In this document: positions 5,367-53,510 of the stretch, piece by piece
How the letters are laid out: each line of letters begins with the position of its first letter
How positions within the stretch are numbered: the first letter of the stretch is position 1
Origin: Heptranchias perlo
Lineage: Eukaryota
Assembly (NCBI RefSeq): GCF_035084215.1
Contig: NC_090332.1
Span: 79,918,001-79,982,000, forward strand
Direction of reading: 5' to 3'
Length of the DNA: 64,000 nt
Translations under genes and position numbers: made by a program
The notes under the pieces: model-generated
Database searches by the model: none
What the model saw: only the letters and a program-made list of their open reading frames with translations
What the model was told of the DNA's origin: nothing

Positions 5367-6402
5367 TTTTTTAAATTCATTCTCTGGGTATGGACATCAT
5401 TAGCAAGGACAGTATTTATTGTCCATCCCTAGTTGCCCTGGAGAAGGTGGTGGTTGGCATTCTTCTTGAACCGCTGCAGTCCATGTGGTGAAGGTACTCC
5501 CACAGTGCTGTTAGATAGGGAGTTCCAGGATTTTGACCCAGTGATGATGAAGGAATGGCGATTGTATGTCTAAGTCAGGATGGTGTGTGACATGGAGGGG
5601 AACCTAGAGGTGATGGTGTTCCCATGCACCTGTTGTTCTTGTCCTTGTAGGTGGTGGAGATCATGGGTTTGGGAGGTGCTGTCGAAGAACCCTTGGCGAG
5701 TTGCTGCAGTGCATCCTGTAGATAGTACACATTGCAGCCACGGCACGCCAGTGATGGAGGGAGTGAATGTTTAAGGTGTTGGATGGGCTGCCAATCAAGT
5801 GGACTGCTTTGTCCTGGATGGCGTTGAGCTTCTTGAGTGTTGTTTCAGCTGCACCCATCCTGGCAAATGTAAAGTATTCCATCACACTCCTGACTTGTGC
5901 CCTGTAGGTGGTAGAGAGGCTCTGGGGAGTTAGGAAGTGAGTCACTTGTCACAGAATACCCAGCCTCTGACCTGCTCTTGTAGCCACAATATTTATGTGG
6001 CTGGTCCAGTTGAGTTTCTGATTAATGGCAACCCACAGGATGTTGATAGTGGGGAATTCAGCGATGGTAATGTCATTTACTTTCAAGGGGAGGTTGTTAG
6101 ACTCTCTCTTGTTGGAGATGGTCGTTGCCTGGCACTTGTGCGGCGTGAATGTTACTTGCCACTTATCAGCCCAAACCTGGATGTTGTCCAGATCTTGCTG
6201 CATGTGACCATGGACTGCTTCATCATCTGAGGAATTGCGAATGGAGCTGAACACTGTGCAATCATCAGTGAACAATACCAATTCTGACCTTATAATGTAG
6301 GGAAGGTTATTGATGAAGCAGCTGGGCCTTGGATACTGTCCTAAGGAACACCTACAGCAATGTCCTGGGGCTGAGATGATTGACCTCCAACAATCACAAC
6401 AA
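5367..6402 (-). mobile_element. 5'-truncated older copy of the LINE family at 39298-41975
   Basis: ORFs FTDDCTVFSSIRN..MQQDLDNIQVWADKWQV and QVRSVMEY..LHHWRAVAA; same 3' UTR. Confidence 0.9.
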
Positions 6403-7582: not shown

Positions 7583-8641
7583 CATATATATTTGGATAGA
7601 TTACGCAAACAAAACTGTGGAGTTGCTAACAGCCTAATCTCAGTCAATGCTAGTCATCAAGTGCATTTTTAAATAAATGTTGTAGAACAAAAATGATGAA
7701 ATGTGATAATGTTTTGTGATTCTAGTCAAGCTTTGTAAAACATGGATAAAATATTGCTCACCATGAACTTGATGCATTGTTGTCCCTTTTTTTGATGATC
7801 TTTCAATTTTAGTGAGATTTCTCTCATACATTTTTCTGTTTATCTCTTCATGAATGTCTGTTCTCTATATATTTATATTTTGTCATTATTTGTAGTGAGT
7901 TCTGTCTTTATTCCTAGCACTCATCTGCTTTTCAACTTTGAATATTTATGTCTGTCACATCAATTGAAATGTGTACCTGACTTTGTTTATTTGTAAACAA
8001 TTTTACAACACCAAGTTATAGTCCAGCAATTTTATTTTAAATTCACAAGCTTTCGGAGATTTCCTCCTTCCTCAGGCAAATGTTTCAAGAGCTCCTTGAA
8101 GCCTACGCATTTATACATATAGAACAATACATGGTGTTTACAGACTGCCCCTGCAACTGCCCGTTGCCAAGGCAATCACCGTGTTCAGACAGAGAGGTGT
8201 CACCTGCAGAACCCCCGAATACACATTCAACAAAAAAACAAACAGGGAAAAAAAACAGAGAAAAAAAACAGAGAGAGGCAGAAACATCCGGAAGGCAGAG
8301 AGAGCCAGCAAATGACCCATTATATTAAAAACAGATAACATTTGTTCGCTGGTGGGGTAACGTGTAGCGTGACATGAACCCAAGATCCCGGTTGAGGCCG
8401 TCCTCATGGGTGCGGAACTTGGCTATCAATTTCTGCTCGACGATTTTGCGTTGTCGTGTGTCTCGAAGGCCGCCTTGGAGTACGCTTACCCGAAGGTCGG
8501 TGGATGAATGTCCATGACTGCTGAAGTGTTCCCCGACTGGGAGGGAACCCTCCTGTTTGGCGATTGTTGCGCGGTGTCCGTTCATCCGTTGTCGCAGCGT
8601 CTGCATGGTCTCGCCAATGTACCATGGTCTGGGGCATCCTT

Positions 8642-8965
8642 TGCAGGAAAGGATGCCCCAGAGCATGGTACATTGGCGAGACCATGCAGACGCTGCGACA
8701 ACGGATGAACGGACACCGCGCAACAATCGCCAAACAGGAGGGTTCCCTCCCAGTCGGGGAACACTTCAGCAGTCATGGACATTCATCCACCGACCTTCGG
8801 GTAAGCGTACTCCAAGGCGGCCTTCGAGACACACGACAACGCAAAATCGTCGAGCAGAAATTGATAGCCAAGTTCCGCACCCATGAGGACGGCCTCAACC
8901 GGGATCTTGGGTTCATGTCACGCTACACGTTACCCCACCAGCGAACAAATGTTATCTGTTTTTAA
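8642..8965 (+). pseudogene. C-terminal GIY-YIG endonuclease fragment of a Penelope-like ORF (mirror copy at 8325-8648, -)
   Basis: CRKGCPRAWYIGETMQTLRQRMNGHR..VGEHF..EQKLI..GLNRD motifs of PLE GIY-YIG. Confidence 0.9.
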
Positions 8966-9208
8966 TATAATGGGTCATTTGCTGGCTCTCTCTGCCTTCC
9001 GGATGTTTCTGCCTCTCTCTGTTTTTTTTCTCTGTTTTTTTTCCCTGTTTGTTTTTTTGTTGAATGTGTATTCGGGGGTTCTGCAGGTGACACCTCTCTG
9101 TCTGAACACGGTGATTGCCTTGGCAACGGGCAGTTGCAGGGGCAGTCTGTAAACACCATGTATTGTTCTATATGTATAAATGCATAGGCTTCAAGGAACT
9201 CTTGAAAC

Positions 9209-9249
9209 ATTTGCCTGAGGAAGGAGGAAATCTCCGAAAGCTTGTGAAT
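9209..9249 (+). ncRNA. Minimal type I hammerhead ribozyme motif (PLE pLTR type); mirror copy at 8041-8081 (-)
   Basis: CTGAGGA core 9215-9221, stem II GGAG/CTCC, GAAA 9236-9239, palindromic AAGCTT stem III, stem I ATTTGC/GTGAAT. Confidence 0.7.
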
Positions 9250-11516
9250 TTAAAATAAAATTGCTGGACTATAACTTGGTGTTGTAAAATTGTTTACAAT
9301 TGTCAACCCCAGTCCATCACCGGCATCTCCACATCTTGTTTATTTGTGGCCTTTTCTGATATCTCTCCCTATCTATCCCTTTGTGTCATCCTATTTACCA
9401 TTCTTTGTTTGCTTTGTTTGCTTTGCCCTTTTTGACTCCTTGCTATCTTCAGTATTATTCCAATCCATTCCTTATCTCTTTCCTCTTAGTTGTCTTTTCC
9501 TCTTTTCTTGAAGTTGACTCTTCAATTTCTTTCATCTTCTTCCAATACTGTACTTTGAATAGAAGTTAACTGAGAGTTTCAACACTTCAACATTTCCATC
9601 TGCACACAATAGTCGGGGAAATTGAACCTGAATCTGAATGCATGTTTAGCAGCCACATTGTGTATGACACAAAACTTCCTCCAGGTCCTCTAACTTCCTG
9701 CGTTCGCACCAGAGTGAGGTTCCCAACTGCTACTGATTTTGGGGACTTGTTTGTATTTAACTTGCAACAGGTAGAGTGAACCATGGTGCTGAGTGATGTC
9801 TGCTTTCATGGTTTCAACACGACTAGAATAAATATTTAAACCACAGAAACTCCAAGAAAATGCTGTCCTCTCTCTTTCTTCTTCCTTCACATAGAATCAT
9901 CACAATTTACAGCACAGATGGAGGCCATTCAGTCCATTGTATGCCTGTGCTGGCTCTCTGAAAGAGCTACACATTTCATACCATCTACTCATTTCATCCT
10001 ATTCCCTGCCATTTATTTAAAAAAAATTCCAAGTGTTTAGCCATTTTCTTACTGCACAAAGTATGGTAATAGTATAGAACCAGGGCAATTAACAAAGAAA
10101 TAATTTAGGATACCTGTTCCTTTAAGAAAATATATAAGAACATCAGAAAGCATAGAATGAAGAAAGGACATTCGTCCATTAAGCTCACTCATTCCACAGA
10201 TCAGGTGCTATCTGCTCTATTAAGGTCAAGTACTGCAAAAATTCAGTCTCCTGAGGGAAAGTTTGCTTAATTCTTCCTGATCCCCAAAGGAAACCAAACA
10301 AAACCCAGGAACATTCATCCATCCTTGGATTTCCACTAGTTAGCCTCTTGATTGCTGCCTTCCATAGATAACACTAACCCTGCACCAACATTACTGGTAC
10401 CATTGTGTCCTGTGGAATATTTGATTATGCAGTCTGTAACTATCCCTATAACCACCAATCCCACTCCCAAACAGATACTTCCCTCACTTTCTTTCAAAGA
10501 CTGGAACTTGACTGCTTTTGTTCCCAATGTGTGGACTTCCCTATTCTCAAGATGCTATATGAAACCCCATGCCATATACTTCTGACTTCCTTTCCTGCTG
10601 TAATCAGGATCAGTTAAATTGCACTACACTCATGAGCAGGAGAGACCCACAATATGAAACCCATTTTTAGAAATAAATGATTTCTCAGTTTAGTTCCAAT
10701 AGCTTTGACTATGCATCTATCTATAATATATTAAACATTGTTACATCTGCGCACACTTTCTGTCAGTACTACTTGACATCCTGCTGTCACATTTATCCCA
10801 ACTTTTTCTCATTTTAAATTCCTATCTTCACATTTATTGGTTTTGGCTATGTAAACTTATTACTCTGATTATGTAATTCAGCACTGAGTTCCCACAAATA
10901 GCTTAAAATGCTTTGTGAAACTTGTTTTAATTTTGCCATTTTTTCCAGTAGCTGAAATTTCTTATGTTCAAAATAAGGGGAGAGGGAAACTAGTGAAGTG
11001 GGTCCAAAATATATTTTGAAAATTCTTTCAGCTGCCATCTTGGACTCTCCCTAAGGTAAGACGCTTACTGCTGGTAGTAAGTTTTGTAAAATAAAAAGGC
11101 CATTAAAAATAAAAAACGAGACAAAATGATTAAACTTATTTACACAGAAGCGTTTTATGCATTTGAAATGTGTCTAAGAATAATTCAGTCAGAGGCCTGT
11201 GCCTCTCTGACAAGACTAGGGCTTGAGCTCATGGGTTTTCCAGAGCTATCACTGCCAGCTGAAAAGGCTAAACAAAGTAAGGAGCTACAATTATGGGCAT
11301 GTATACGTTAATTTCTGTGGCTGCAACTCCTAGAATTTTTTTGATTGACAGCAAGATTGCTCATTCGCAGTGCCAGGTATTTATAAGCCCAATTCCTTCC
11401 CCATCCCCGTCCAACAATGGAGAAGCACTAATAGGACTATTATCCCAGGAACCTATTTTTAAGAGCAGAACCTGTTTTGCATAAAAATGTCAAAAGAAGG
11501 TAAAGCATAAAAGCAT

Positions 11517-21960: not shown

Positions 21961-23036
21961 ACATTAAATAAGCACCAATACTACAGTACTAAAGCTAGTT
22001 CAATATCTGGACTTTTTCTAGCATAGTAATATGAACGCTATAAAACTAAAACAAACATGTAAATGCAATGGCCCAGATTTTGCTGTAGCAGGGCATCTAG
22101 CAGCATCTGCTGTCAGTTAGATTTGCCCTTGTATGTTTAGGTTTTTAAGTTTTTTGCATGGCAAGTTGCTGAAAGTGTGAGCTGATAACGTCGCAGCAAG
22201 GGAAATGGGGCATCTGGGACCTGAGTGTACAGGGCAAGCAACTGTGCACCTCCTTAAGCAATCAGATTGAAGGATTGTTAAATTAACAGCGCTAGGACTG
22301 AGAAGGAAGTGTAAATTAGAGTGGGTGAATTCAATGTCAAATCAGGTACAGAAAGAGAAATAAAGAGAGGGAAAGAAAGATAGGATTGTGAGAGAGAAAA
22401 AATAGACAGAAAGGAAAAATACATTTTTAAAATTTAAAACACTTGTAATAGTTAATTTTCAGTGCCAGAGAGGCTGGTTGACAGTAATTAACATTTATCA
22501 AGTCATTAAAAGGGTACCTAGACATGAGGGGCACTAAATTGTGCCGTGTAGCGCCCGTCGTTTTGGCGCTACGTGGCCTCTCGAACATCCAAGATGGCGT
22601 CTTGGCTGCGCATGTTTCCAGCGTGATGTGCACCGGACGCCATCTTGGTATAGGAGTTAGCACATGCGCAAATACCGAATGCCAGAAGCATGTAAAGTAG
22701 GGAGAAAATGCGTGCAATCAGTGTGCAACGCTGATTTAAAGCGATAGACACCATTTTGGACCTTAATGCTCAACTCAACGCACAGTCTTAACCACGCACA
22801 CCTGAACATGTCTTAGAGTGCCTGTAGGACCTCCCATCAGCGCTATTTATAGAGACCATGCAGGATTTACAGGTTAGTTGCTGGATTATTGATTCTGGTT
22901 GCTGGTGGAATAGGAATTTTTTTGAAGCTTCCTATACTTACTGAGAGTTCCTAGAGTACATTTGAGAGCGGTTTGGCAGGTACTGCCTTACAGTTCGGAA
23001 AGTTACAACCGTGGTTGAACAACATTCCTGGCAACC

Positions 23037-24220
23037 ATGGGTGGTCTGCTAGGGCTCCTTCTCGGCATTGAGCATGACTGGGAGCATTCAGAGAGGCCAC
23101 ACATAGCAGGTCGAGCTGCGAGGAGAGGGAGGACGAGGAGGCTCAGGGCACTGATCAGGAGGCCATATCCAATGAGGGCCTTCCGGGACCAACTCCCTTA
23201 CCTCAATATGAATGAGGAGTATTGCATCCAACATCTGAGGTTCACCAAGGAAGCTATGACCGAGATCTGTCAACTGGTGTGGCCACAACTGCAGCCTCAG
23301 AGCAAGGCAAGGACAGCATTGCCTATGGCTGTGAAGGTCACTGTGGCGCTGTATTTCTACGGTTCAGGATCATTTCAGGCCTCTGCTGGTGACATGTGCA
23401 ACATCTCGCAGTATGCAGTGCACTGCTGTAGAAGGGAGGTCACAGACGCACAGTACGAGATGAGGAACAGGTTTATCACCTTCCCTCTTGAAAGAGACAA
23501 GCAGAATGAGCGAGTACGGCGGTTCACTCGCATTGCTGGCTTCCCCATGGTCCAGGGTGCCACTGACTCCACGCACATTGCCTTGCATGGCCCACACATC
23601 AACTCGGCCGTCTTCGTCAACTGAAAGGGCTTCCACTCCCTGAATGTGCAGCTGGTGTGCAACCACATGCATTGAATCATAGAGGTCAATGCCCGCTATC
23701 CTGGGAGCAGTCAAGAAGCCTTCGTCATGTGGCAGTCCAACGTGCCAGCTATCTTTCACCTGCCTCGGCAAGTCAAAGGCTGGTTACTAGGCGACAAGGG
23801 CTAGCCCCTCTTGCCATGGCTCATGACTCCGGTCAGGAACCCACGCAGACATGCACAGCAGACCTATAATGAGAGTCATACTGCCACAAGCAACATCGTG
23901 GAGCATACCATAGGCCTCCTCAAACAATGCTTCCGCTGCCTAGACCGGTCTGAAGAAGCCCTGCAGTACGCCCCTGAGTGGGTGGGCAGATCCGTGGTGG
24001 TATGCTGTATGCTGCACAACCTTGCCATCATGAGAGACCAGCCTTTGCCACTAATGATCGGAGAAGACCCTGAGCAGAGGTGGAGGAGGAAGAAGCTGAG
24101 GAGGAGGAGGGGGAGGAGCCGGAAGAGGAAATGGAGGAAGATGCAAGAGTGGAACAGGAACCACTCGCCTTGTCTGCATGGGCTCTGCATGCTCGCCTGA
24201 TCCTTGCCCGCTATCAATAA
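23037..24220 (+). pseudogene. Harbinger DDE transposase (HARBI1-like) with in-frame stops
   Basis: ALPMAVKVTVALYFYGSGSFQ, GFPMVQGATDSTH, KGFHSLNVQLVC, LLGDKG, VEHTIGLLKQCFRCL, CCMLHN; stops at 23622, 23673 and 23802. Confidence 0.92.
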
Positions 24221-24416
24221 TTTGAACTAAATCCCCCAACTCACCAACGGTCCTACACTCCCCATCTTACCACTCCCACAAGACAATCAAATCGTCCTCC
24301 ATCTGATTGCGCATTGGTTTCCCCCTCAGCTCATTGCATGAATAAAAACCACCACCAAATGCAAATTCAAAGTCACATTTATCAATGACTAGATGAAATT
24401 ATGGAAACAGAACAGA

Positions 24417-26252
24417 ACTGTTCACCCTTTTGCATTCCCTTAGTGCCTGTTGTTCGTGTGCCTTTACCTTTCCTAGAGCTCCTATGAGCTGCTTCCCCAG
24501 TGGCTGGAGCACGGGTGGTGGGAGGCTGCTGGCCTTCAATGGAGGAACATGCAGATGGCCTTGGAGGAGACCTCGAGCAGCTCTGGGCTGGGAGGGCCCG
24601 GTTTCAGACTGCATCATCTCGGCATGGGCTGCAGCAGTCTGGCCTGACTGGCCAATAGGCAAAAACAAGGGCACTGGCGGGGTGGTAGGGGTGGGAGCAG
24701 GAATGCCGTCGTCCTGAGAGAGGACAGCAGGTCCGATTGCCATGGCACCACTGCCACTCTCCCGGTGCGGCGCCTCAGCAATCCTGGTGATCAGCTGGAG
24801 AATGGATTGCTGGAGTGCTGTGACACCCTCGAAGCTCCGATCAACAGTGGTCCCCAGAGCCACGATAGAAGCAGTCTGAGCTTCCATTGCCGCAGTCTGA
24901 GCTTACATTGCACTTTCTGAACAGCAACTCTAGCTTGCAGACCTTTGACGACATCGGTTTTTACTGCAATGGAAACCACGTCATCGGCCATCAGACGCTG
25001 CATCATGGTGGGTTCCACAGGTATGCTGACCGAGGTGACCACCTGTTCCATGTGGGAAAGGATGGGCTCCAAGCTCTGTACCAAGCCCTGTGCCAAATTG
25101 GAGCTGGACTCCTCCATGCCCCTTGTCAGTGTGCAAGCTTTCTGGCAGGCTTTCCAGTGCCCCAAGCATTTGTTGGTGTACGCCCATCAGCCGTCTTCGG
25201 TAGCCTGGCCCATCGAAGTCCTCATCTGACTCCTCTGCAGCAGAACTAGTGAGCGACCTCACCCTCCGGCGAGCTGGCACCTGTGGTATCCATTCCCCCT
25301 GCCCCGGCTCCTGCGCACTTGTGCCCGGTATCTCACCACGTGCAGATCCCTCCTCTAAACTGGCCTCCAAATGACGTGCAGTGTCAGTCTCTGAGCTGGT
25401 GGAAGCGAGTGTCAGATCGAGTGACGGTGTGGCTTCAGTGTCCTCCTCCTCCTCCTCCTCCTCCCCCTCAGACGGTGCCTGCTCCAGTTCTTGGGTATCT
25501 GCAATGACAAAGGGAAACAGGTTGAGTTGTGGAGCGGGGAGAAGAGCAAGTAAGATGTGCGTGCCGACAGCACGTGAGTCAGAAAAGATTATGGGAGGAG
25601 AGGGCATGTTGTCATGGCTGCAGCGACGACCCGATGATCCGAAGCACTGTCTCCTCTAGGCGGGTAAGGACATGTAGGCGTCCCTGTCCACCCTCAGGTC
25701 TCTCCTGATGCCAGCTGTTATGCACCACCTTCTCCTGCAAGACAGAGGACAGTGCGTCAGTGAGTATCCTGCAAGGTGTGTGCGTGATGTGCCTGTCATG
25801 GTCGAATAGCTGCCAGTGTGTGTGACCTGTGAGTGTAGTTGTGTGGCAGACAAGTGTGATACTATGTGTGGGTGAGATGCAGCATGCCAAGTGTAGCATT
25901 GCAAAGTGTCTGTTGGTGGGTGGGTGACGGAGAGTGTGATGCGTGGAGCAGTGGTGCAGTTGGTAGGATGCGCCACTTGACACTTGCAGTCGCTCACCTT
26001 AACCACTCGTGTCAAATCATTGAACTTCTTTCGGCACTGCACCCACATGCGTGGTGCCATTCTCCTGGCGTTCACTTCCTGGGCCACAGCCCGCCAATGC
26101 CTGTGGAGCTGCTGTCTGGAGGGTCTCCTGCCACCCTGTGGGTACATATTGGCCCTCCTTTCGTCCACTCCTTCCACCAGGGCCTCCAGTGCATAATCCG
26201 AGAAACGTGGGGCCCTCTCTTGCGCCAGACCTGCCACCCTTGTGTCCATCAT
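24417..26252 (-). pseudogene. Harbinger Myb/SANT-like DNA-binding gene, three exons (26252-25998; 25734-~25610; 25498-~24417), frameshifted
   Basis: RAPRFSDYALEALV..W..VA..VN..R.W.QCRKKFNDL; donor AAG|GTGAG; acceptors TTGCAG at 25735 and 25499; acidic tract. Confidence 0.85.
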
Positions 26253-27764
26253 TCCCTCCTCCTAGTGAACTGTGCATGTCTCTTTTAAAATGTACACCTG
26301 CACCATTAAGAGGTGCAGGCTGCCAGTGACATGCGCTGAGCACGCCCCTTTTCCGGCTTCCTCATTCTCCATGAAACCTCTCAGCAGCGCGGGTAGCGCA
26401 AGCTGCACGGAGATATGGTAAGTAGCAAGCAGCTTGAAATTCGCGCACTGCCTGCATGGGGGCCATCGAGCATGGGGTAATAGCGGATCATGCTACCCGC
26501 TCCCGAAAATGGGCCCCATCGAATTTTTTTTCTCCCGAAATGACAAGAATTAACTTTCTGTGGTGTGTTTCGTTTGTATCTACCACACAAATACAGCAAC
26601 TTCACGGCATTCAATGCATTTCAATGGTGAGGCAGACGGCGAGATGCTGTTTCCGCAAAGCGAATGGCGGAGCAGCACAACTCGGACAGCAACTTTTCTA
26701 TATCCGCGTTTAACCGTCTGCCTCTTTCCTGAAGTTGCTGTACCATTTGTGCAAAAATAACGGCAAACGCCATCCCTATTTGTCACCTGTTGTCCCTATT
26801 TTCCACCCATTCTCATTTCTTAATCCATTTTTCTCCGGCCTCTTTGATTTTACTTCATTTTGCTTAACCTAACCTATTCTATCTTTTATAAGCACTTTAT
26901 CTCCAAACAATAACTTTTAAATCTTTGACGTAACTTTTTTTTTCTCTCTTCCTCCTGGCTTCAAATATCCATTTTGGAGACCGAAGTAACTTTTTAAGAA
27001 AGTGTTTTCATTGGCTGAAAACTGGCGGAAAAGGCCTAGATTTTTTAGAGCCAAAGTGAAACTGTTGAAGAGTAAGGCTGGATTAATATGGCACTCTATG
27101 GGGCCTAAAATGGATGAGACAAACTCCTAGAGAGGTTCACATACCTCAGGACTTTGATGCACAGTGTTGTCTTCTGAGTTTTAATGCCACTATTTCCTTG
27201 ACATGCACCCAAAGCCACTTTACATCAACACAAAGTGGCAGCATTAATGCAGCCTTGCATGGTCACACTATTACTGTGATGAGATAATGCTTTATTATAT
27301 TTTTGATTCATAAAAACATGGAAGAGGCTGCTGAATGGGGTTATAATGGATGGTAGCCCCCAGAACCTGACAGTGCCCGGATGAGTAAACTTGCCCTTGG
27401 TGCCGGAAGGGTTAACAAATTAAATTAGGAAGTTGGACCCCCTGAAGTTTGGCTTACACCTCAGTATAGTTTTCCTTGCCATCCTGTATTTAGTAGAAAT
27501 TAAGTGTGGCTAATATTCCACCTGATACCCTAATGTACTAGTGAGAAAAAATTAAGATGTGAAAAAATGGTGATTCACATGTTAACACATGAGTGGAAAA
27601 TTTAAGAAAATACCTAAGTGTCTCAGAAAAGACAATTCCTCCCTTTAACGTTTATTAGTGGTGCTTTGTCCCTTGTTAAAAACTGGTTGAAAATCAGTAG
27701 GGAATCCAGCAGTCTTAAAGAGGGACTTTTGACATGAAAAACTGGTTTACACACTCTTTTTGCA

Positions 27765-36254: not shown

Positions 36255-39094
36255 TCATAGAATCATAGAATCATAGAAGTTACAACATGGAAACAGGCCC
36301 TTCGGCCCAACATGTCCATGTCGCCCAGTTTATACCACTAAGCTAGTCCCAATTGCCTGCACTTGGCCCATATCCCTCGATACCCATCTTACCCATGTAA
36401 CTGTCCAAATGCTTTTTAAAAGACAAAATTGTACCCGCCTCTACTACTGCCTCTGGCAGCTCGTTCCAGACACTCACCACCCTTTGAGTGAAAAAATTGC
36501 CCCTCTGGACCCTTTTGTATCTCTCCCCTCTCACCTTAAATCTGTGCCCCCTCGTTATAGACTCCCCTACCTTTGGGAAAAGATTTTGACTATCTACCTT
36601 ATCTATGCCCCTCATTATTTTATAGACTTCTATAAGATCACCCCTTAACCTCCTACTCTCCAGGGAACAAAGTCCCAGTCTGTCTAACCTCTCCCTGTAA
36701 GTCAAACCATCAAGTCCCGGTAGCATCCTAGTAAATCTTTTCTGCACTCTTTCTAGTTTAATAATATCCTTTCTATAATAGGGTGACCAGAACTGTACAC
36801 AGTACTCCAAGTGTGGCCTCACCAATGCCCTGTACAACTTCAACAAGACATCCCAACTCCTGCATTCAATGTTCTGACCAATGAAACCAAGCATGCTGAA
36901 TGCCTTCTTCACCACCCTATCCACCTGTGACTCCACTTTCAAGGAGCTATGAATCTGTACTCCCAGATCTCTTTGTTCTATAACTCTCCCCAACGCCCTA
37001 CCATTAACGGAGTAGGTCCTGGCCCAATTCGATCTACCAAAATGCATCACCTCACATTTATCTAAATTAAACTCCATCTGCCATTCATCGGCCCACTGGC
37101 CCAATTGATCAAGATCCCGTTGCAATCCTAGATAACCTTCTTCACTGTCCACAATGCCACCAATCTTGGTGTCATCTGCAAACTTACTAACCATGCCTCC
37201 TAAATTCTCATCCAAATCATTAATATAAATAACAAATAACAGCGGACCCAGCACCGATCCCTGAGGCACACCGCTGGACACAGGCATCCAGTTTGAAAAA
37301 CAACCCTCTACAACCACCCTCTGTCTTCTGTCGTCAAGCCAATTTTGTATCCAATTGGCTACCTCACCTTGGATCCCATGAGATTTAACCTTATGTAACA
37401 ACCTACCATGCGGTACCTTGTCAAATGCTTTGCTGAAGTCCATGTAGACCACGTCTACTGCACAGCCCTCATCTATCTTCTTGGTTACCCCTTCAAAAAA
37501 CTCAATCAAATTCGTGAGACATGATTTTCCTCTCACAAAACCATGCTGACTGTTCCTAATTAGTCCCTGCCTCTCCAAATGCCTGTAGATCCTGTCCCTC
37601 AGAATACCCTCTAACAACTTACCCACTACAGATGTCAGGCTCACTGGTCTGTAGTTCCCAGGCTTTTCCCTGCCGCCCTTCTTAAACAAAGGCACAACAT
37701 TTGCTACCCTCCAATCTTCAGGCACCTCACCTGTAGCGGTGGATGATTCAAATATCTCTGCTAGGGGACCCGCAATTTCCTCCCTAACCTCCCATAACGT
37801 CCTGGGATACATTTCATCAGGTCCCGGAGATTTATCTACCTTGATGTGCGTTAAGACTTCCAGCACCTCCCTCTCTGTAATATGTACACTCCTCAAGACA
37901 TCACTATTTATTTCCCCAAGTTCCCTAACATCCATGCCTTTCTCAACCGTAAATACCGATGTGAAATATTCATTCAGGATCTCACCCATCTCTTGTGGTT
38001 CCGCACATAGATGACCTTGTTGATCCTTAAGAGGCCCTACTCTCTCCCTAGTTACCCTTTTGCCCTTTATGTATTTGTAGAAGCTCTTTGGATTCACCTT
38101 TGCCTGATCTGCCAAAGCAATCTCATATCCCCTTTTTGCCCTCCTGATTTCTCTCTTAACTCTACTCCGGCAATCTCTATACTCTTCAAGGGATCCACTT
38201 GATCCCAGCTGCCTATGCATGTCATATGCCTCCTTCTTCTTTTTGACTAGTGCCTCAATCTCCCGAGTCATCCAAGGTTCCCTACTTCTACCAGCCTTGC
38301 CCTTCACTTTATAAGGAATGTGCTTACCCTGAACCCTGGTTAACACACTTTTGAAAGCCTCCCACTTACCAGACGTCCCTTTGCCTGCCAACAGACTCTC
38401 CCAATCAACTTCTGAAAGTTCCTGTCTAATACCATCAAAATTGGCCTTTCCCCAATTCAGAATTTTAACTTTTGGGCCAGACCTATCCTTCTCCATAGCT
38501 ATCTTAAAACTAATGGAATTATGATCACTGGTCCCAAAGTGATCCCTCACTAACACTTCTGTCACCTGCCCTTCCTTATTTCCCAAGAGGAGGTCAAGTT
38601 TTGCCCCCTCTCTAGTCGGGCCATCCACATACTGAATGAGAAATTCCTCCTGAATACACTCAACAAATTTCTCTCCATCCAAGCCCCTAATGCTATGGCT
38701 GTCCCAGTCAATGTTGGGAAAGTTAAAGTCCCCTACTATTACCACCCTATTTTTCTTGCAGCTGTCTGTAATCTCCTTACATATTTGCACCTCAATCTCC
38801 CGTTGACTATTTGGGGGTCTGTAGTACAATCCTATCAAAGTGATCTCTCCCTTCTTATTTTTCAGTTCTACCCATATAGACTCAGTGGGCGAACCCTCGG
38901 ATATATCCCCTCTCACTACTGCCGTGATGTTCTCCCTAATCAAGAACGCAACTCCCCCTCCTCTCTTACCTCCTGCTCTATCTTTCCTATAGCATCTGTA
39001 CCCTGGAACATTGAGCTGCCAGTCCTGCCCCTCCCTTAGCCATGTTTCAGTAATAGCGATAACATCCCAGTCCCATGTACCCATCCATGCCCTG
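36255..39094 (-). mobile_element. Young CR1 LINE, 5'-truncated just inside ORF2
   Basis: (TTCTATGA)3 tail at the left end; uninterrupted APE-RT ORF. Confidence 0.96.
36343..39093 (-). CDS. CR1 ORF2 (AP endonuclease plus reverse transcriptase), open frame, native start lost
   Basis: ITETWL, GDFN, SDHN, NYRPVSL, DFSKAFD, VPQGSVLGP, KFADD; the ~19 N-terminal residues in the ORF track come from flank DNA. Confidence 0.9.
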   Translation of the reverse strand, partial: RAWMGTWDWDVIAITETWLREGQDWQLNVPGYRCYRKDRAGGKRGGGVAFLIRENITAVVRGDISEGSPTESIWVELKNKKGEITLIGLYYRPPNSQREIEVQICKEITDSCKKNRVVIVGDFNFPNIDWDSHSIRGLDGEKFVECIQEEFLIQYVDGPTREGAKLDLLLGNKEGQVTEVLVRDHFGTSDHNSISFKIAMEKDRSGPKVKILNWGKANFDGIRQELSEVDWESLLAGKGTSGKWEAFKSVLTRVQGKHIPYKVKGKAGRSREPWMTREIEALVKKKKEAYDMHRQLGSSGSLEEYRDCRSRVKREIRRAKRGYEIALADQAKVNPKSFYKYIKGKRVTRERVGPLKDQQGHLCAEPQEMGEILNEYFTSVFTVEKGMDVRELGEINSDVLRSVHITEREVLEVLTHIKVDKSPGPDEMYPRTLWEVREEIAGPLAEIFESSTATGEVPEDWRVANVVPLFKKGGREKPGNYRPVSLTSVVGKLLEGILRDRIYRHLERQGLIRNSQHGFVRGKSCLTNLIEFFEGVTKKIDEGCAVDVVYMDFSKAFDKVPHGRLLHKVKSHGIQGEVANWIQNWLDDRRQRVVVEGCFSNWMPVSSGVPQGSVLGPLLFVIYINDLDENLGGMVSKFADDTKIGGIVDSEEGYLGLQRDLDQLGQWADEWQMEFNLDKCEVMHFGRSNWARTYSVNGRALGRVIEQRDLGVQIHSSLKVESQVDRVVKKAFSMLGFIGQNIECRSWDVLLKLYRALVRPHLEYCVQFWSPYYRKDIIKLERVQKRFTRMLPGLDGLTYRERLDRLGLCSLESRRLRGDLIEVYKIMRGIDKVDSQNLFPKVGESITRGHRFKVRGERYKRVQRGNFFTQRVVSVWNELPEAVVEAGTILSFKKHLDSYMGKMGIEGYGPSAGNWD

Positions 39095-39297
39095 CTTTGG
39101 AAGGCTGAGCTGTACAACAGTAACAGGTCATGAGGACACACTTTGCACAATACATACTTGTGACAGATACTTGCTGTAGGAATCTACCAGCATCACCATG
39201 GCACCTTCCCTCAAGTACGCCATCTTCTTTCACATTTGCAGCTAGGTGTAGAAAAGAACAATCACCTTTCAGCTATCTCCTGCCAGGTGTTTTGGAT

Positions 39298-41975
39298 GAT
39301 ATACAGTCAGGAGGGAGTGGCCCTGGGAGTCCTCAACATTGACTCTGGACCCCATGAAATCTCATGGCATCAGGTCAAACATGGGCAAGGAAACCTCCTG
39401 CTGATTACCACCTACCGTTCTCCCTCAGCTGATGAATCAGTCCTCCTCCATGTTGAACACCACTTGGAGGAAGCACTGAGGGTAGCAAGGGCACAAAATG
39501 TACTCTGGGTGGGGGACTTCAATGTCCATCACCAAGAGTGGCTCGGTAGCACCACTACTGACCGAGCTGGCCGAGTCCTGAAGGACATAGCTGCTAGACT
39601 GGGCCTGTGGCAGGTGGTGAGCGAACCAACACGAGGGAAAAACTTACTTGACCTCGTCCTCACCAATCTACCTGTCGCAAATGCATCTGTCCATGACAGT
39701 ATTGGTAGGAGTGACCACCGCACAGTCCTCGTGTAGATGAAATCCCGTCTTCGCACTGAGGACACCATCCAACGTGTTGTGTGGCACTACCACCGTGCTA
39801 AATGGGATAGATTCAGAATGGATCTAGCAGCTCAAAACTGGGCATCCATGAGGCGCTGTGGGCCATCAGCAGCAGCAGAATCGTATTCCAGCACAATCTG
39901 TAACCTCATGGCCCGGCATATTCCTCACTCTACCATTACCAACAAGCCAGGGGATCAACTCTGGTTCAATGAGGAGTGTAGAAGAGCATGCCAGGAGCAG
40001 CACCAGGCGTACCGAAAAATGAGGTGCCAACCTGGTGAAGCTACAACTCAGGACTACATGCATGCTAAACAGCGGAAGCAACATGCTATAGACAGAGCGA
40101 AGCGATTCCACAACCAACGGATCAGATCAAAGCTCTGCAGTCCTGCCACATCCAGTCGTGAATGGTGGTGGACAATTAAACAACTAACGGGAGGAGGAGG
40201 CTCCGCAAACATCCCCATTCTCAATGATGGCGGAGTCCAGCACGGGAGTGCAAAAGACAAGGCTGAAGCGTTTGCAACCATCTTCAGCCAGAAGTGCCGA
40301 GTGGATAATCCATCTCAGCCTCCTCCCGATATCCCCACCATCACGGAAGCCAGTCTTCGGCCAATTCGATTCACTCCACGTGATATCAAGAAACGGCTGA
40401 GTGCACTGGATACAGCAAAGGCTATGGGCCCCGACAACATCCCAGCTGTAGTGCTGAAGACTTGTGCTCCAGAACTAGCTGCGCCTCTAGCCAAGCTGTT
40501 CCAGTACAGCTACAACACTGGCATCCACCCGACAATGTGGAAAATTGCCCAGGTATGTCCTGTCCACAAAAAGCAGGACAAATCCAATCCGGCCAATTAC
40601 CGCCCCATCAGTCTACTCTCAATCATCAGCAAAGTGATGGAAGGTGTCGTCGACAGTGCTATCAAGCGGTACTTACTCACCAATAACCTGCTCACCGATG
40701 CTCAGTTTGGGTTCCGCCAGGACCACTCGGCTCCAGACCTCATTACAGCCTTGGTCCAAACATGGACAAAAGAGCTGAATTCCAGAGGTGAGGTGAGAGT
40801 GACTGCCCTTGACATCAAGGCAGCATTTGACCGAGTGTGGCACCAAGGAGCCCTAGTAAAATTGAAGTCAATGGGAATCAGGGAGAAAACTCTCCAGTGG
40901 CTGGAGTCATACCTAGCACAAAGGAAGATGGTAGTGGTTGTTGGAGGCCAATCATCTCAGCCCCAGGACATTGCTGCAGGAGTTCCTCAGGGCAGTGTCC
41001 TAGGCCCAACCATCTTCAGCTGCTTCATCAATGACCTTCCCTCCATCATAAGGTCAGAAATGGGGATGTTCGCTGATGACTGCACAGTGTTCAGTTCCAT
41101 TCGCAACCCCTCAGATAATGAAGCAGTCCGAGCCTGCATGCAGCAAGACCTGGACAACATCCAGGCTTGGGCTCATAAGTGGCAAGTAACATTCGCGCCA
41201 GATAAGTGCCAGGCAATGACCATCTCCAACAAGAGAGAGTCTAACCACCTCCCCTTGACATTCAACGGCATTACCATTGCCGAATCCCCCACCATCAACA
41301 TCCTGGGAGTCACCATTGACCAGAAACTTAACTGGACCAGCCATATAAATACTGTGGCTACGAGAGCAGGTCAGAGGCTGGGTATTCTGCGGCGAGTGAC
41401 TCACCTCCTGACTCCCCAAAGCCTTTCCACCATCTACAAGGCACAAGTCAGGAGTGTGATGGAATACTCTCCACTTGCCTGGAAGAGTGCAGCTCCAACA
41501 ACACTCAAGAAGCTCGACACCATCCAAGATAAAGCAGCCCGCTTGATTGGCACCCCATCCACCACCCTAAACATTCACTCCCTTCACCACCGGCGCACTG
41601 TGGCTGCAGTGTGTACCATCCACAGGATGCACTGCAGCAACTCGCCAAGGCTTCTTCGACAGCACCTCCCAAACCCGCGACCTCTACCACCTAGAAGGAC
41701 AAGGGCAGCAGGCGCATGGGAACAACACCACCTGCACGTTCCCCTCCAAGTCACACACCATCCCGACTTGGAAATATATCGCCGTTCCTTCATTGTCGCT
41801 GGGTCAAAATCCTGGAACTCCCTTCCTAACAGCACTGTGGGAGAACCTTCACCACACGGACTGCAGCGGTTCAAGAAGGCGGCTCACCACCACCTTCTCG
41901 AGGGCAATTAGGGATGGGCAATAAATGCCGGCCTTGCCAGCGACACCCACATCCCGTGAACGAATAAAAAAAAAA
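39298..41975 (+). mobile_element. Young non-LTR retrotransposon of the CR1/L2 group (family distinct from the neighbouring CR1), 5'-truncated, A-tailed
   Basis: APE (VGDFN, LDLVL, SDH) plus RT (NYRPISL, LDIKAAFD, VPQGSVLGP, MFADD); AATAAA then A tail. Confidence 0.93.
39299..41911 (+). pseudogene. LINE ORF2 with a single nonsense codon (TAG 39734-39736)
   Basis: Track ORFs 39236-39736 and 39737-41911 are contiguous in the same frame. Confidence 0.9.
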
Positions 41976-48208: not shown

Positions 48209-50082
48209 GAAAGTGCATGTGTGTGTGCAGACATTAATTGAGGAAAGGTTTGGGTTTGGCTGTACAGCCCCCTGTAGAGGAATACCCCACTAACACTTGC
48301 TGTCTGGATTCACACCTGAGAAATGGCCATTTGGGCACGGAAGTAGAAGCTAGACGATGCCTGTGGCACTGTGCCCAGCAAGATTCAGTAGCGGCAAGCA
48401 AGGAGGAAAGAAAATTGGAGCGGGCAAAGTAATTACCTTTCAAATCTGATATTCTTTAGGGTAACGCACCGTTAATTGCTGCTGATATAGCTTCCAGTTT
48501 CTTTAATGCTCAGGTATACTTTTTATAAATAATACTTGGCCTACCTCGTAAACAGTACTTGTGATTGTTAGGGTAACAGGGAGCAAGGTGCAGAGTGGCA
48601 GGTCGTAGTGTCCAACACACATCCATGATGGCTCTCACAGATGTACTGATCACTGCTGCAGAAATGTCTGTTGTATTGCAAATGCGTTTCATGCCGGTTC
48701 CTTCATTTTGTGTAGGGTTACTGTCCAGATTGTCCAAGGTGTCTTGATGACATTGTTGTGCCTAGATCATCATTATGACTGCATGTTTTTCATGCCCTGT
48801 GCCGATTGCATGCAATTTTAGATGGGAAGCGGGCACAGTGTTACTTTTTCGTGGGACCAGCACCAGCAGAATTCCAACTTGTCTTTTGAACTGAAGCACA
48901 AATAACTAGAGTGGGTGGAATTTAAGTGGACACCGATGGCATTTCTGAATCCATAGGAACCCAAGAATGAATACATCAGATTTGCTTTATTTTATTTTTT
49001 ATTAAGTTCATTCATAACCTGTGAAACTTGTCTACTCTGACTGCAAAAAGTCAGAGTTTGACGAAAAGTCCTGTGAAAAACATAGGCCTCAGAATACAGT
49101 GAAACAATGTCCTGAATGACATTTTACGAAGATGATAAGATAGCATTGCTTTAAATACTTTGGGAATCACTTGTTGTCTGGGAAACTGCCCCCGGTGAAG
49201 GGATCCTCACTTTGACGATATCTGCCTGTTTTTTGAATTTATAAAAACCTGTATTTTTTTGTTCCCTCTGTGGCTTGATGGGTAATTGATTCATTTCAGA
49301 GGATGGAAAATCATGCAACCTACCAATCGGGCACACTGACCCCTGCGCTCCAGTTCCCAATATCTTCTCCCGTTGCCCGAAGCTCTGAGTTGGGAGCCCT
49401 AAATCATAAAATTTACCCCAATTTCTCAGTGTGTGGCCTGTGTGTTTTTAAAAAAAAAATAGTTGTTTCAAAGGTAAAAAAAAAGTTAACAACTTGCTAA
49501 AGTTTAAAATCAACACCCCCCACTCCTACCACCCACCCTGCCCAGGGCCATCTTATTTGCTGCTATCCTAGGTTATCGTGCTAAGGCATGAAAGCTGGGA
49601 TTTATGCTTGTGCGATTCCCAGCCTGTGGAAAACCACAAGCTTAGAAAGCACAGAAGCAGAAAATCCAGGCAGATCCGTCTTCACCCAAACTTGGCTCTC
49701 GGGAGCTCTTGCTGTTTCCCTGAATGCAATGAATAATGGGCGGTGGCTGGTCCAATGACACGGTCAATAGCTATAGATGTACCACGTTTCTTTATGTAGA
49801 CTTGGAATATAGTAGGATAGGGTTTTTCAGCCGAGAAGGCAATCTTCTCATAGTAAAATTGTAAGAAAATGATTCCCCCCCCCTTATTTTTTGTTTCTAA
49901 GTAATTTCCCGTTTTCAAAAAGGCTACTATCCTGAGTGTACATGGAGTGTACCCTTTAATATATAAAGACGAAAACACACTCAGCTTATAATCAGTGCCA
50001 ATAATTAAGTAATGTCGACATATTAGTAAAGTACTCATTGTGTATATTATAAGATTCTTTACCTTATACTTTCCAACATATT

Positions 50083-50276
50083 GGGGTAGATTTTCGTTTT
50101 CACCGCATGGCCAGTATCTGGTGGAGCAGATCGCCCGCTCTTTAGAGAACACACCCAATTTTCATTCCAATGCAATCAACAGAATGAAAATCAAATAGCT
50201 TCTACAATGGGCAGATAATGGGCATAATCCGCTCCACCAAAATACTGCCCATGTGGTGAAGCAGAAAATTGACCCC
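50083..50276. mobile_element. Palindromic Harbinger-type MITE; related decayed copy at ~16147-16400
   Basis: GGGGTAGATTTTC / GAAAATTGACCCC TIRs, 3-bp TSD ATT, internal inverted symmetry. Confidence 0.82.
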
Positions 50277-51388
50277 ATTGTCTTTTAGTTAAAAATACCA
50301 TAGGCTAAATCCATCAGTCCTGCGATCCCAGAGGGGAGGCGCACTTGAAAAGAATGTGAGCCATAGAAAGGACTACTTCACTGTAAACCCGTATTATCCA
50401 ACCCACACTCCCTTTGAGCTTGTCTCCTCACCGGGAGTGTTAGACTGGTGAGTTTACCCACATCATTCTGGGCTCCCCGGTGGCTCAGGCAGTCAGAATA
50501 GTGAGCAGCCGAGCCACATAAACCAGGAAGGTACCAGGTTTAATCCCTGATCTGTGGTGAATTGGGTGGTAGGGGGTGCCCCAGCACTCCTGGGTTAGGG
50601 AATGGAAAATCTGTTAGGGTATCTCCTGATCGCTGTTCAGTGGCAACTCTGCCAGAAAGTGCCACATATGTGGATATCAGGTGAGGACAGTCACCTGATG
50701 ACCTCCATGGGAATAAGTAGCCTGCTTGCTGCTCACTGTGCAGGCTTATATACAAAAATGGCTGCTTTAGTAAGGTACCAGAAAGCACATGGACCTGTAC
50801 CCCAGGAGGGAGCCAATGCCTTCAGGAGGGAAGAAAATCAGAGGAGAAAAAGCACTGTTTGAGACCATCATTTGCAGAATTAACATATGACGGAAATCTG
50901 CCCACTTTACCGTTAAACTACAAATAAAATGATTTTTTCTTGTATTAATCAAATCTAATTGTTGGCTTTAATGATATTATACGTGTTACAGTAAAGGGTC
51001 AGCAGGGAAAAATCTCTGTGCAATGTCAACCAGAGATCAAATAAATCAATCAGTGCTCATTGCACACAGCAGTGGAATTTTGCATGTTTACATGTTCTCT
51101 TCAGGGCTTACAGTTTATAATTTAGTTACTTTAAAAGGTTTGTTTATTTTTATTAAAATCCCATCAAATGCTTCAAGGGTGCCCATGATTGGATTTACAG
51201 ACCATTACATTTTTAAAGGATTAAATCCTAATTGCTCTGAAATCACACAGCATGTCTAAGATGTGGTTTCATAGATGCGACCATTACAATGTCATTTCAG
51301 ACAGTGTGATAATTAATATAGACACGTTAGGGCTGATTCCGCAATCCTGGGCAAACAGGCACTTCAGTGCCCTGACAATGGTGGAGTA

Positions 51389-51603
51389 TTGTAAACAATT
51401 TTACAACACCAAGTTATAGTCCAACTATTTTATTTGAAAATCACAAGCTTTCGGAGGCTTCCTCCTTCCTCAGGTGAATTCACCTGAGGAAGGAGGAAGC
51501 CTCCGAAAGCTTGTGATTTTCAAATAAAATAGTTGGACTATAACTTGGTGTTGTAAAATTGTTTACAATTGTCAACCCCAGTCCATCACCGGCATCTCCA
51601 CAT
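51389..51603 (+). mobile_element. Minimal Penelope-like insertion: perfect ~180-bp palindrome plus 34-nt tail
   Basis: Palindrome centred on GAATTC (51476-51481); 12-bp TSD AATGGTGGAGTA at 51377-51388 and 51604-51615; homologous to 9210-9334. Confidence 0.92.
51480..51516 (+). ncRNA. Minimal hammerhead ribozyme motif; mirror copy on - at 51441-51477
   Basis: TCAC-CTGAGGA-A-GGAGG-AAG-CCTCC-GAAA-GCTT-GTGA. Confidence 0.72.
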
Positions 51604-51799
51604 AATGGTGGAGTAGGAAGCTGACTGTGCCAGATTCGGCAAGCTCAGCTACTATACATCACTGTAATATTCTCCAGACGCACAAGGAGCGCTATGGCTA
51701 CTCGTGAGTGTAAAAGGGGAGTGCAGCAGCTCTTTAAGGGCTGCTGATCTTAAAGGTCTAGTGTTCTTTGCTTTTGCTGTTTTCTATTATGGCTGGTTG

Positions 51800-53200
51800 C
51801 AGGAAAAAAAAGATGACTAGGTTCCCAGGGCCAAGTGCCAGCACTACCCCCTTCAATGAGAAGCTAGATGTATTGGTGGAGGAGGTGCAACAGAGAGTCC
51901 ATTTTGAGGGCAGAGGGAAACCCTCCTCTCAAAGCCAACGTGCAGCAAACAAGGCAGGAGGTAACACACAGAGTCAATGCATTCGGTGCAGGTCATGGAC
52001 TAGATGGGGAAGAAGTTATCTGGCCTAAGGCAGAATGCCAAGGTACAGTTGACTGTAGTTTGCCAACTCCAGTGAAATAAGTCCCTGTACTATGCATGCG
52101 CCATGCACTGAGCTGCTAACATGATGCAGCATCGGCAATGCAGCAGAGAAAGCAGTGGGACAAACTCTTGTGTCTTGCACTCCAAACTACCATGTCTTTA
52201 AAACTTTAGCTGCAACTAGATGCAGCAAGTGCGAGACTGTAGAGTGCTTACGGATGGATGAATTAAGATGGGCTGAATGGCCTTCCTCAGCGGTAAGTAT
52301 CTTGTGATCTTGTGAAGAAGCCACCTTACAAATTGTCAGAGAGGAGGACATAGGTGATGTGGGCGAGTGAGAACTTGGAGGCTTTGTGCCATCTCAACCA
52401 GGTAAGTGTTTTCTTCAACTATTTCTTACTTTTTGTTCAAGCTCACTCACTCAGTGATATGCTTGCACTTTAACGTGGGGACTCCCAGCAGGACTCAACT
52501 CAGGTGGATTCCAAGCCTGGCATGAGAAAGGAATCACCAGATTCGGCCAGCTCCGCCAAAAAAGCCAGATTATGCCCTTCTGCTAGTTAGTTGACAAACC
52601 TAACCTCTTCCAGCCAACCTTGTTTGGAATTCTTGGAATTCTTTCTCCAGTCCTCAAAGGCCTCTTGAGGATGTACTCCCGCTTTGTGCACTATGCTCAC
52701 TTCCAATACTAAAGATGGGACAGAACACCTATGGTAAGCGTAGGAATGAGACCTAGGCCATCCGCTAAGGGAGGATGGGTAGCAAGAGATATAAAGTAAA
52801 GTCCTAAACACCACCACCTGCAGCAAAATAGATGACTGCTAACTCAAAATCATACATTGCGCATCCTGCACAAATTCCACATATTTCATCCCTCCAGCCA
52901 TTCTGGACAACAGTCTGGAAGATCACCAGGACCATGGCTGGTGTTACAATCTCAGAGAACCCAGTCCAATGCTTGTTGGGCCTGCCCACTACAGGGGAGG
53001 GCCTCCTGCAACAAGCAAACATTCATTATTAGTTGCAAGAAGACACATCTCCCCTCCTTGGTGAATTGCAGCCCTCCACACAGCAAACATGTAGGTGCAA
53101 TACATGTACCAACCAGACCATTCTATGGTTCTATGATAATGACTATGTTCAGCCTGCCATTGGAGTTGGGGAAACACCAAGCAGTCTGGGGCTTGCTCAT
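51800..53200. pseudogene. Heavily decayed Harbinger: Myb remnant (+, ~51810-52400) convergent with transposase remnant (-, ~52810-53200)
   Basis: PFNEKLDVLVEEVQQR and donor AAG|GT at 52042; minus-strand FQTVV..EICGI resembles GSFQ..GDMCNIS. Confidence 0.45.
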
Positions 53201-53510
53201 GGAGGCTTCTTCAGTACAAACCTGCTACCATTCTCCCAGCACAGCAACCCTTCCACTGGCCATGAGGGCAATAAAAAACATGACCACTAGTATGCAGGAC
53301 CTGCTTCACCTTGCTAATTAACTAATTAAACAAGCTGCCTCAACTCTCTGAGCCGCATTGCTCCTGATGCAAGCATAGTGATGCCAAGAAAGCTGGAGGT
53401 ATTAATGCACTTATCCCACATGTACAGTGCAATCAAAATGCACAATGGTTTCATAAAATATATATGTAAATCTACACTTAATTGTAATATGTGTGGATGT
53501 ATGTGTAATG

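What the first reader, a model, noticed from the sequence alone, without database searches (positions are those of the whole stretch)
51377..51615. Second, minimal copy shows a fixed insertion grammar: TSD, zero-spacer palindrome, invariant 34-nt tail, TSD
Seen: an independent insertion with a different TSD (AATGGTGGAGTA) and a perfect palindrome at 51388-51569. The inverted arm ends at exactly the same point (TTGTAAACAATTTTACAA) as in the 7991 copy and the tail TGTCAACCCCAGTCCATCACCGGCATCTCCACAT is identical; only the fold-back point differs. That end point is itself a small hairpin (TTGTAAA..TTTACAA). Inference: the outer end is set by a sequence or structure signal 34 nt from the 3' end, while the centre marks where reverse transcription stopped and snapped back. 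Here the centre lies immediately 5' of the hammerhead, giving a non-coding ribozyme-only hairpin element. The two copies also argue against an assembly artefact.
Basis: partly seen in the sequence, partly recalled or inferred. Interest (0 to 1): 0.75.

Follow-up and report, generated by a model that had tools for sequence, protein, structure and literature searches.

The report
Stump insertion of shark Penelope retroelement
This 215-base hairpin-shaped insert is a real but ordinary short copy of a common shark retrotransposon (a Penelope-like element), laid down in the "mirror copy plus 34-base tail" pattern already described for this class.

Summary
In detail: a perfect zero-spacer palindrome (51388-51569), a 34-nt tail identical to the 7991 copy, a 12-nt target duplication, and a minimal hammerhead 5-6 nt from the centre. 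The longer copy encodes the GIY-YIG end of a Neptune-type Penelope-like element (PLE) abundant in this shark. Inverted 5'-truncated copy plus a 30-40 nt tail on one end plus TSD is the published PLE layout, and the tail was shown in vitro to lie between two reverse-transcription start sites. The 'grammar' is therefore known. The two ribozymes lie on opposite strands, so this is not a retrozyme. Whether short copies form their own family, or stop at the RNA's natural 5' end, could not be tested: no genome was held and the contig tables were inconclusive.

The parts
51377..51388 (+). Left target-site duplication, 12 nt; its last A also pairs with T51569
51389..51478 (-). Inverted arm: tail-less copy of the element's pLTR end, with a hammerhead on the minus strand (C3 at 51473)
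51478..51479 (.). Centre: 2-nt AT dyad shared by both arms, no spacer
   Evidence: upstream letters in relatives differ
51480..51516 (+). Minimal type I hammerhead: 4-bp stem I, CUGAGGA plus extra A, 5-bp stem II, GAAA, palindromic GC helix III, CUU triplet, predicted cut after 51512
   Evidence: features as in PMC4209133; no Rfam match at gathering score; cleavage untested
51551..51576 (+). AT-rich region of overlapping symmetry around the second end (arm end 51568/51569); the end sits on the axis of a 7-of-8 near-palindrome
   Evidence: best of 671 axes in copy 1's sense arm, noticed after the fact; unfavourable as a hairpin (+0.7 kcal/mol)
51570..51603 (+). 34-nt tail, on one end only
   Evidence: family 3' ends pile up one base further
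51604..51615 (+). Right target-site duplication, 12 nt
7983..9347 (+). Comparison copy: TSD 7983-7994, inverted arm 7991-8642, 5-nt spacer, sense arm 8648-9299 (GIY-YIG C-terminus, 3' UTR, hammerhead C3 at 9215), tail 9300-9335, TSD 9336-9347; 3 mismatches in 652 arm pairs

Best explanation
This is a 5'-truncated insertion of a shark Penelope-like retrotransposon, reduced to the hammerhead-bearing end, and its mirror arm was likely built at insertion by two priming events on the element's RNA. Shown: TSD, inverted tail-less arm, sense arm, tail, TSD; same family as a GIY-YIG-coding copy. Inferred: the endonuclease nicks both target strands 12 nt apart; the bottom-strand end primes reverse transcription at the tail's end and the top-strand end primes at a second start about 34 nt upstream, helped by 1-4 nt of microhomology; both cDNAs run to the same RNA 5' end, here just upstream of an uncleaved hammerhead; the enzyme then jumps end-to-end onto the other cDNA across the 2-nt AT dyad and each cDNA is copied on the other, giving identical arms, no spacer and a tail on one side only.
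For: Identity (about 0.95): copy 1's arm translates to a GIY-YIG C-terminus 99% and 91% identical to the two best shark hits, the second an RT-bearing protein with a C-x4-C-x2-C linker motif; copy 2 matches copy 1 at 118 of 126 nt; 20-21 thousand contigs per run lie on the element. Layout is published: inverted 5'-truncated copy and 30-40 bp tail on one end (PMC8557442); 31-bp tail with 9-10 bp TSDs and palindromic junctions (PMC3846280); 34-37 bp repeat at the ORF start and inverted repeats of variable size (PMC2377424); opposite-strand hammerhead pairs 100-700 bp apart (PMC4209133). Mechanism: a purified PLE protein nicks and extends both target strands, starts at two RNA sites that bound the tail, and uses uncleaved RNA (PMC11167929). 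Here each copy's arms are identical over the 91 nt where the copies differ at 8 sites, so the mirror postdates those differences. Both TSDs end in bases that pair with the RNA at the second start (4 nt and 1 nt). None of the three upstream contexts seen (copy 1, L002, the loose-end consensus) carries the six-base palindrome found at this centre, so a simple fold-back would need untemplated bases.
Against: Only two copies were seen whole. The template jump between cDNAs is my inference: the in vitro paper leaves later steps unvalidated and studied a Poseidon, not a Neptune-type, element. Copy 1's centre (1-nt overlap, 5 templated spacer bases) fits snap-back equally well. The loose-end consensus has only 0.45 agreement, so a parent subfamily with a natural palindrome at the centre is not excluded. 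No pile of loose ends at 9299-9301 is among the 24 of 1701 rows shown; only single joints leave at 9294, 9301 and 9303. Arm identity could also come from later repair within the hairpin.
Confidence: 0.6

Rival explanations
1. Same element, but one cDNA folds back on itself (self-priming), copies itself until the protein-bound signal 34 nt from its start, and that end is joined to the target.
For: Gives identical arms and equal lengths without a second priming. Copy 1's centre can be drawn as a 1-bp closure of a 5-nt loop. Self-priming was proposed for PLE palindromic junctions (PMC3846280).
Against: Predicted folds of both cDNA 3' ends show no terminal hairpin. A zero-loop centre needs two untemplated bases or an unseen parent variant. 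It leaves unused the two RNA start sites and two-strand extension seen in vitro.
Confidence: 0.3
2. The ~215-bp form is a self-perpetuating non-autonomous family: it is transcribed from the centre, carries both start sites, and is mobilised in trans.
For: The hammerhead-to-tail segment has 2-3 times the summed contig depth of the ORF end and about 7 times that of the bin just upstream; 81-101 contigs per run leave the reference at 9214; 4 distinct joints land on 9214/9215. The D. virilis promoter is internal. pLTR-derived non-autonomous elements are published.
Against: Copy 1 differs from the common letters at 9212-9213, which clips any alignment at 9214; the loose letters there are T-rich, not the mirror of the hammerhead, and fit subfamilies with other 3' UTRs. 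The tool warns that depth is no copy number, and the 4 runs are one sample. Two of copy 2's 8 differences are common family variants (27% and 62% of depth in run X1), with no private signature shown.
Confidence: 0.1
3. Sequencing or assembly fold-back artefact.
For: Perfect palindromes can arise in library preparation (general knowledge); the 4 runs that hold the stretch may be its source.
Against: Different unique flanks on both sides with an exact 12-nt TSD, a tail on one side only, a second copy with 3 arm mismatches, and the same layout in the literature. All 4 runs hold 1.00 of 398 sampled words of 49500-53500 (not independent).
Confidence: 0.02

Closest known systems
EN+ Penelope-like element insertions with inverted pLTR and tail (PMC8557442 Fig. 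2 legend; PMC3846280; D. virilis Penelope 34-bp repeat, PMC2377424)
   Same: Inverted 5'-truncated copy head-to-head with a sense copy, 30-40 nt tail on one end, TSD, palindromic junction, hammerhead in the pLTR.
   Different: Only in size: this copy keeps 91 nt of arm and no coding sequence, and the junction has no spacer.
Poseidon PAc of Anolis carolinensis (PMC11167929)
   Same: Tail bounded by two ends near a stem-loop region downstream of a hammerhead; full hammerhead retained in inserts.
   Different: PAc is Poseidon-clade with the ORF starting inside the hammerhead; here the family has the Neptune/Nematis-type Cys linker and the ORF likely starts just after the tail (inferred).
Non-LTR retrozymes (bioRxiv 10.64898/2026.07.22.740005; PMC7229834 seen as listing only)
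   Same: Short, non-coding, type I hammerhead, pLTR-related.
   Different: Retrozymes are head-to-tail tandems with same-sense ribozymes; this is head-to-head with one ribozyme per strand.
L1 5' inversions by twin priming (recalled, not read here)
   Same: Both target strands prime; microhomology at the second priming site.
   Different: L1 inversions cover a different part of the RNA from the sense part; here both arms cover the same bases.

Membership tests
EN+ Penelope-like element | RT with C-terminal GIY-YIG endonuclease in one ORF | tested here: met
   Met for the family, not for this copy: copy 1 fragment 91% identical to P0003, which has RVT_1 E 5e-9. Pfam GIY-YIG on the fragment alone is weak, E 0.013, below cut-off.
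EN+ Penelope-like element | 30-40 nt tail on one end | tested here: met
   34-36 nt in 2 of 2 copies
EN+ Penelope-like element | Inverted 5'-truncated copy adjacent at the 5' end | tested here: met
   2 of 2 copies in the window
EN+ Penelope-like element | Minimal hammerhead in the pLTR (extra base after position 9, G10.1-C11.1, palindromic helix III) | tested here: met
   descriptor; also in L002 with changed but paired stems; features
EN+ Penelope-like element | Target-site duplication | tested here: met
   12 nt in both copies; empty site not seen
Neptune clade | CX2-5CxxC linker between RT and EN | tested here: met
   Present in P0003, P0014, P0031, P0005 (definition). Shared with Nematis, and it lies upstream of what the window retains.
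Neptune clade | RT phylogeny with reference Neptune sequences | not tested
   No labelled reference set was fetched
Non-LTR retrozyme | At least two tandem units with same-sense hammerheads | tested here: not met
   One hammerhead per strand; definition
Independent non-autonomous PLE family | Short copies form a clade with shared boundaries | not testable with these tools
   No genome held; contig tables inconclusive; 8 collection scans gave no shark copy
Active hammerhead ribozyme | Self-cleavage | not testable with these tools
   Catalytic fold is not the predicted minimum in the sense arm and is sequestered in read-through RNA

The most novel reading that the evidence does not exclude
The centre is not a stall but the RNA's own 5' end: transcription starts just before the hammerhead, reverse transcription fires from the two start sites in the 5' pLTR and runs off after 91 and 125 nt, so every full-length transcript can shed a fixed-size hairpin copy, built by two cDNAs joined end to end. 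These copies would map the PLE start site genome-wide, record the unsolved second half of the PLE cycle, and might re-amplify on their own.
Probability: 0.2. Interest if true: 0.55.

Novelty: new member of a known kind. Interest (0 to 1): 0.2.

Why it matters
As a structure it adds little: it is a tidy example of the published PLE insertion pattern. Its use is as material. How PLEs make the inverted copy is still open, and a young, very abundant shark family with exact TSDs allows a purely computational test between two-primer template jumping and snap-back, and of whether short copies end at the transcription start. Such inserts would also give 91-bp perfect double-stranded RNA when read through.

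Tried and rejected
No whole genome is held. Rfam: 0 matches at gathering score in 64 kb; the 30 sub-threshold matches at the locus are generic hairpin models and no hammerhead family. Collection scans: tail pattern 0 in viral and metagenome contigs; hammerhead pattern 0 in viral and genome contigs; protein scan 3 loci from 323 pattern matches in metagenomes, best 54% identity, and 0 from 22 in viral contigs; a 20-mer gave 2 bacterial loci against 2.2 expected by chance, rejected, and 0 viral. Laying contigs could not give the histogram of centres or outer ends: no strand-change joint among 15 of 20 joints shown, but word-graph contigs are expected to stop about 15 nt past a perfect palindrome centre (my reasoning), and only 24 of 1701 loose-end rows were shown. 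I first read the 9214 pile as a centre hotspot and dropped that, because copy 1's own variant letters clip alignments there and the loose letters are not mirror sequence. An initiator motif at the centre is weak: it fits one recalled consensus and fails two others; a TATA-like run lies 34 nt upstream of the matching base in copy 1; not used as evidence. Two rows (P1 and stem I probabilities) were mis-registered by me and are ignored. A 6-bp pairing between the tail end and the TSD is a single case and treated as chance. Supplement search of PMC11167929 found 0 hits in 3 text files; its figures S1-S2, which map genomic ends, were not visible and may bear on the mechanism.

Full report
Observation. 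The sequence is as described. Bases 51388-51569 form a perfect palindrome of 91+91 nt without spacer. A 12-nt direct repeat flanks the insert (51377-51388, 51604-51615). The 35 nt at 51569-51603 equal 9300-9334 in the other copy. A blastn of the long copy's sense arm finds only these two inserts in the window. Three refinements matter. A51388 is both the last TSD base and the first arm base. In the 7991 copy the 12-nt TSD (7983-7994, 9336-9347) overlaps the first four arm bases. If each TSD is given in full, the element-derived arm begins at the base matching 9295 in copy 1 and 9299 in copy 2, so the shared end is resolved to 1-4 nt, not exactly. Copy 1 also has a further C (9335) that family contigs share, so the 3' ends differ by one base.

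What it is. The long copy's sense arm encodes the C-terminus of a GIY-YIG endonuclease (Pfam E 0.013, below cut-off). A search for longer relatives gave 43 hits among 88 candidates, led by shark proteins; the two best, named Heptranchias perlo, are 99% and 91% identical. P0003 carries an RT domain (E 5e-9) and a C-x4-C-x2-C motif before the endonuclease, the linker of Neptune and Nematis PLEs. I did not build a tree, so 'Neptune-type' rests on that motif. Four runs of one sample put 20-21 thousand contigs each on the element: it is a very abundant family. The finding is the last 126 nt of that element (118 of 126 identical to copy 1) plus a mirror of the first 91 of those bases.

Hammerhead. 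Rfam gives nothing at gathering score, but a descriptor for minimal type I hammerheads finds 4 sites in the window, one per arm of the two inserts, and none in 30 shuffles. They show the extra base after the first core box, the G-C pair opening stem II and the palindromic helix III reported for PLE ribozymes (PMC4209133, parts 1-2 of 4 read). A distant marine relative, L002 (53% protein identity), has the same motif with changed but still paired stems. The centre lies 5-6 nt upstream of the core. The two ribozymes are on opposite strands; in read-through RNA they sit inside one long hairpin (-174 and -178 kcal/mol). The paper found no cleavage for a single motif and low cleavage for dimers. 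So 'ribozyme element' is not supported functionally.

What is known. [quoted passage not shown] PMC3846280 (passages) describes inverted pLTRs with a 31-bp tail, 8-10 bp TSDs, palindromes at the junction and solo pLTRs, and proposes self-priming. PMC2377424 (Introduction and passages) gives a 34-37 bp repeat at the start of the ORF and inverted repeats whose size varies by copy. PMC4209133 notes opposite-strand hammerhead pairs 100-700 bp apart. PMC11167929 (parts 1-2 of 4) shows that a purified PLE protein nicks and extends both target strands, starts at two RNA sites whose interval is the tail, and uses uncleaved RNA; it leaves later steps unvalidated. PMC8969392 (passages) lists inverted pLTRs and short 3' extensions as routine curation features. 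The retrozyme preprint (parts 1-2 of 5) requires tandem same-sense ribozymes, which this lacks. Seven searches listed no paper devoted to this shark family or spelling out a two-cDNA join for PLEs; I judged most hits from listings, and the library holds open-licence papers only.

How it most likely forms. On both strands the insert reads antisense then sense. The top strand leaves the TSD into antisense sequence that begins at the second end; the bottom strand leaves the TSD into antisense sequence that begins at the tail's end. That is what two primed cDNAs would give. Each TSD ends in bases able to pair with the RNA at the second start (4 nt and 1 nt). Arms are identical within each copy over the 91 nt where the copies differ at 8 sites, which fits one RNA copied twice, or self-copying. 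The centre separates the models weakly. The upstream letters in copy 1, in L002 and in the loose-end consensus do not include the six-base palindrome seen at this centre, so only the AT dyad is plausibly shared; neither cDNA end is predicted to fold back. An end-to-end jump needs nothing more, whereas snap-back needs untemplated bases or an unseen parent. Copy 1's centre, with five templated spacer bases, fits either. I put two-primer joining at 0.6 and snap-back at 0.3. The end does fall on the best near-palindromic axis of 671 in the arm (7 of 8 pairs), noticed after the fact.

It could not be completed. One search shows 118-132 contigs per run leaving at 9335 into long, diverse AT-rich flanks, which confirms a sharply defined 3' end. 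It shows 81-101 contigs leaving at 9214 and 4 distinct joints landing on 9214/9215, with summed depth rising from about 0.6 million (9175-9202) to about 4.4 million (9231-9258) against 1.3-2.3 million over the ORF. This hints that many copies lack the ORF end, but copy 1's own letters at 9212-9213 clip alignments there, subfamilies with other UTRs would give the same, depth is not copy number, and the runs are one sample. No pile at 9299-9301 is among the 24 of 1701 rows shown; single joints leave at 9294, 9301 and 9303. The share of copies with an inverted arm is therefore unknown. Two earlier AI notes on other shark genomes describe many such short palindromic copies; I did not check them and do not count them as support.

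Verdict. Real, correctly seen, and explained at the level of family and layout by existing work. New member of a known kind; interest 0.2. The open remainder, worth a genome-wide count, is whether centres cluster at the RNA's 5' end and how the two arms are joined.

Noticed in passing
window 36343-39183 (-): Uninterrupted 946-aa frame that reads like the endonuclease-RT ORF of a CR1-type LINE (label from recall of motifs).
   Followed up: no
window 39164-41911 (+); 5565-6324: Second LINE-like element in two frames (190 and 724 aa), tail-to-tail neighbour of the first; an 87% identical 760-nt piece lies inverted at 5565-6324.
   Followed up: no
window 23019-26261: Converging frames resembling a Harbinger-type transposase (+, 23019-23624) and a Myb/SANT-like partner (-, 25656-26261); labels from recall.
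   Followed up: no
window 51533-51587 and L002 1386-1447: A stem pairing a TGGAC motif upstream with GTCC in the tail is predicted in both the shark element and the distant relative L002 and encloses the second end; candidate recognition structure, only three sequences, covariation untested.
   Followed up: partly
window 9335 onward (table 7): Loose-end consensus after the tail begins AT and has CT at places 5-6 in all four runs; a related ORF starts Met-Ala (P0083). The ORF may start right after the tail.
   Followed up: partly
window 9175-9209: TATA-like run 34 nt upstream of the base that matches the centre of the short copy.
   Followed up: partly
proteins P0002, P0010, P0015, P0021, P0032, P0034: Shark gene models fused to this element's endonuclease end (for example XRCC5 and septin 5a isoforms): exonisation or annotation artefact.
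   Followed up: no
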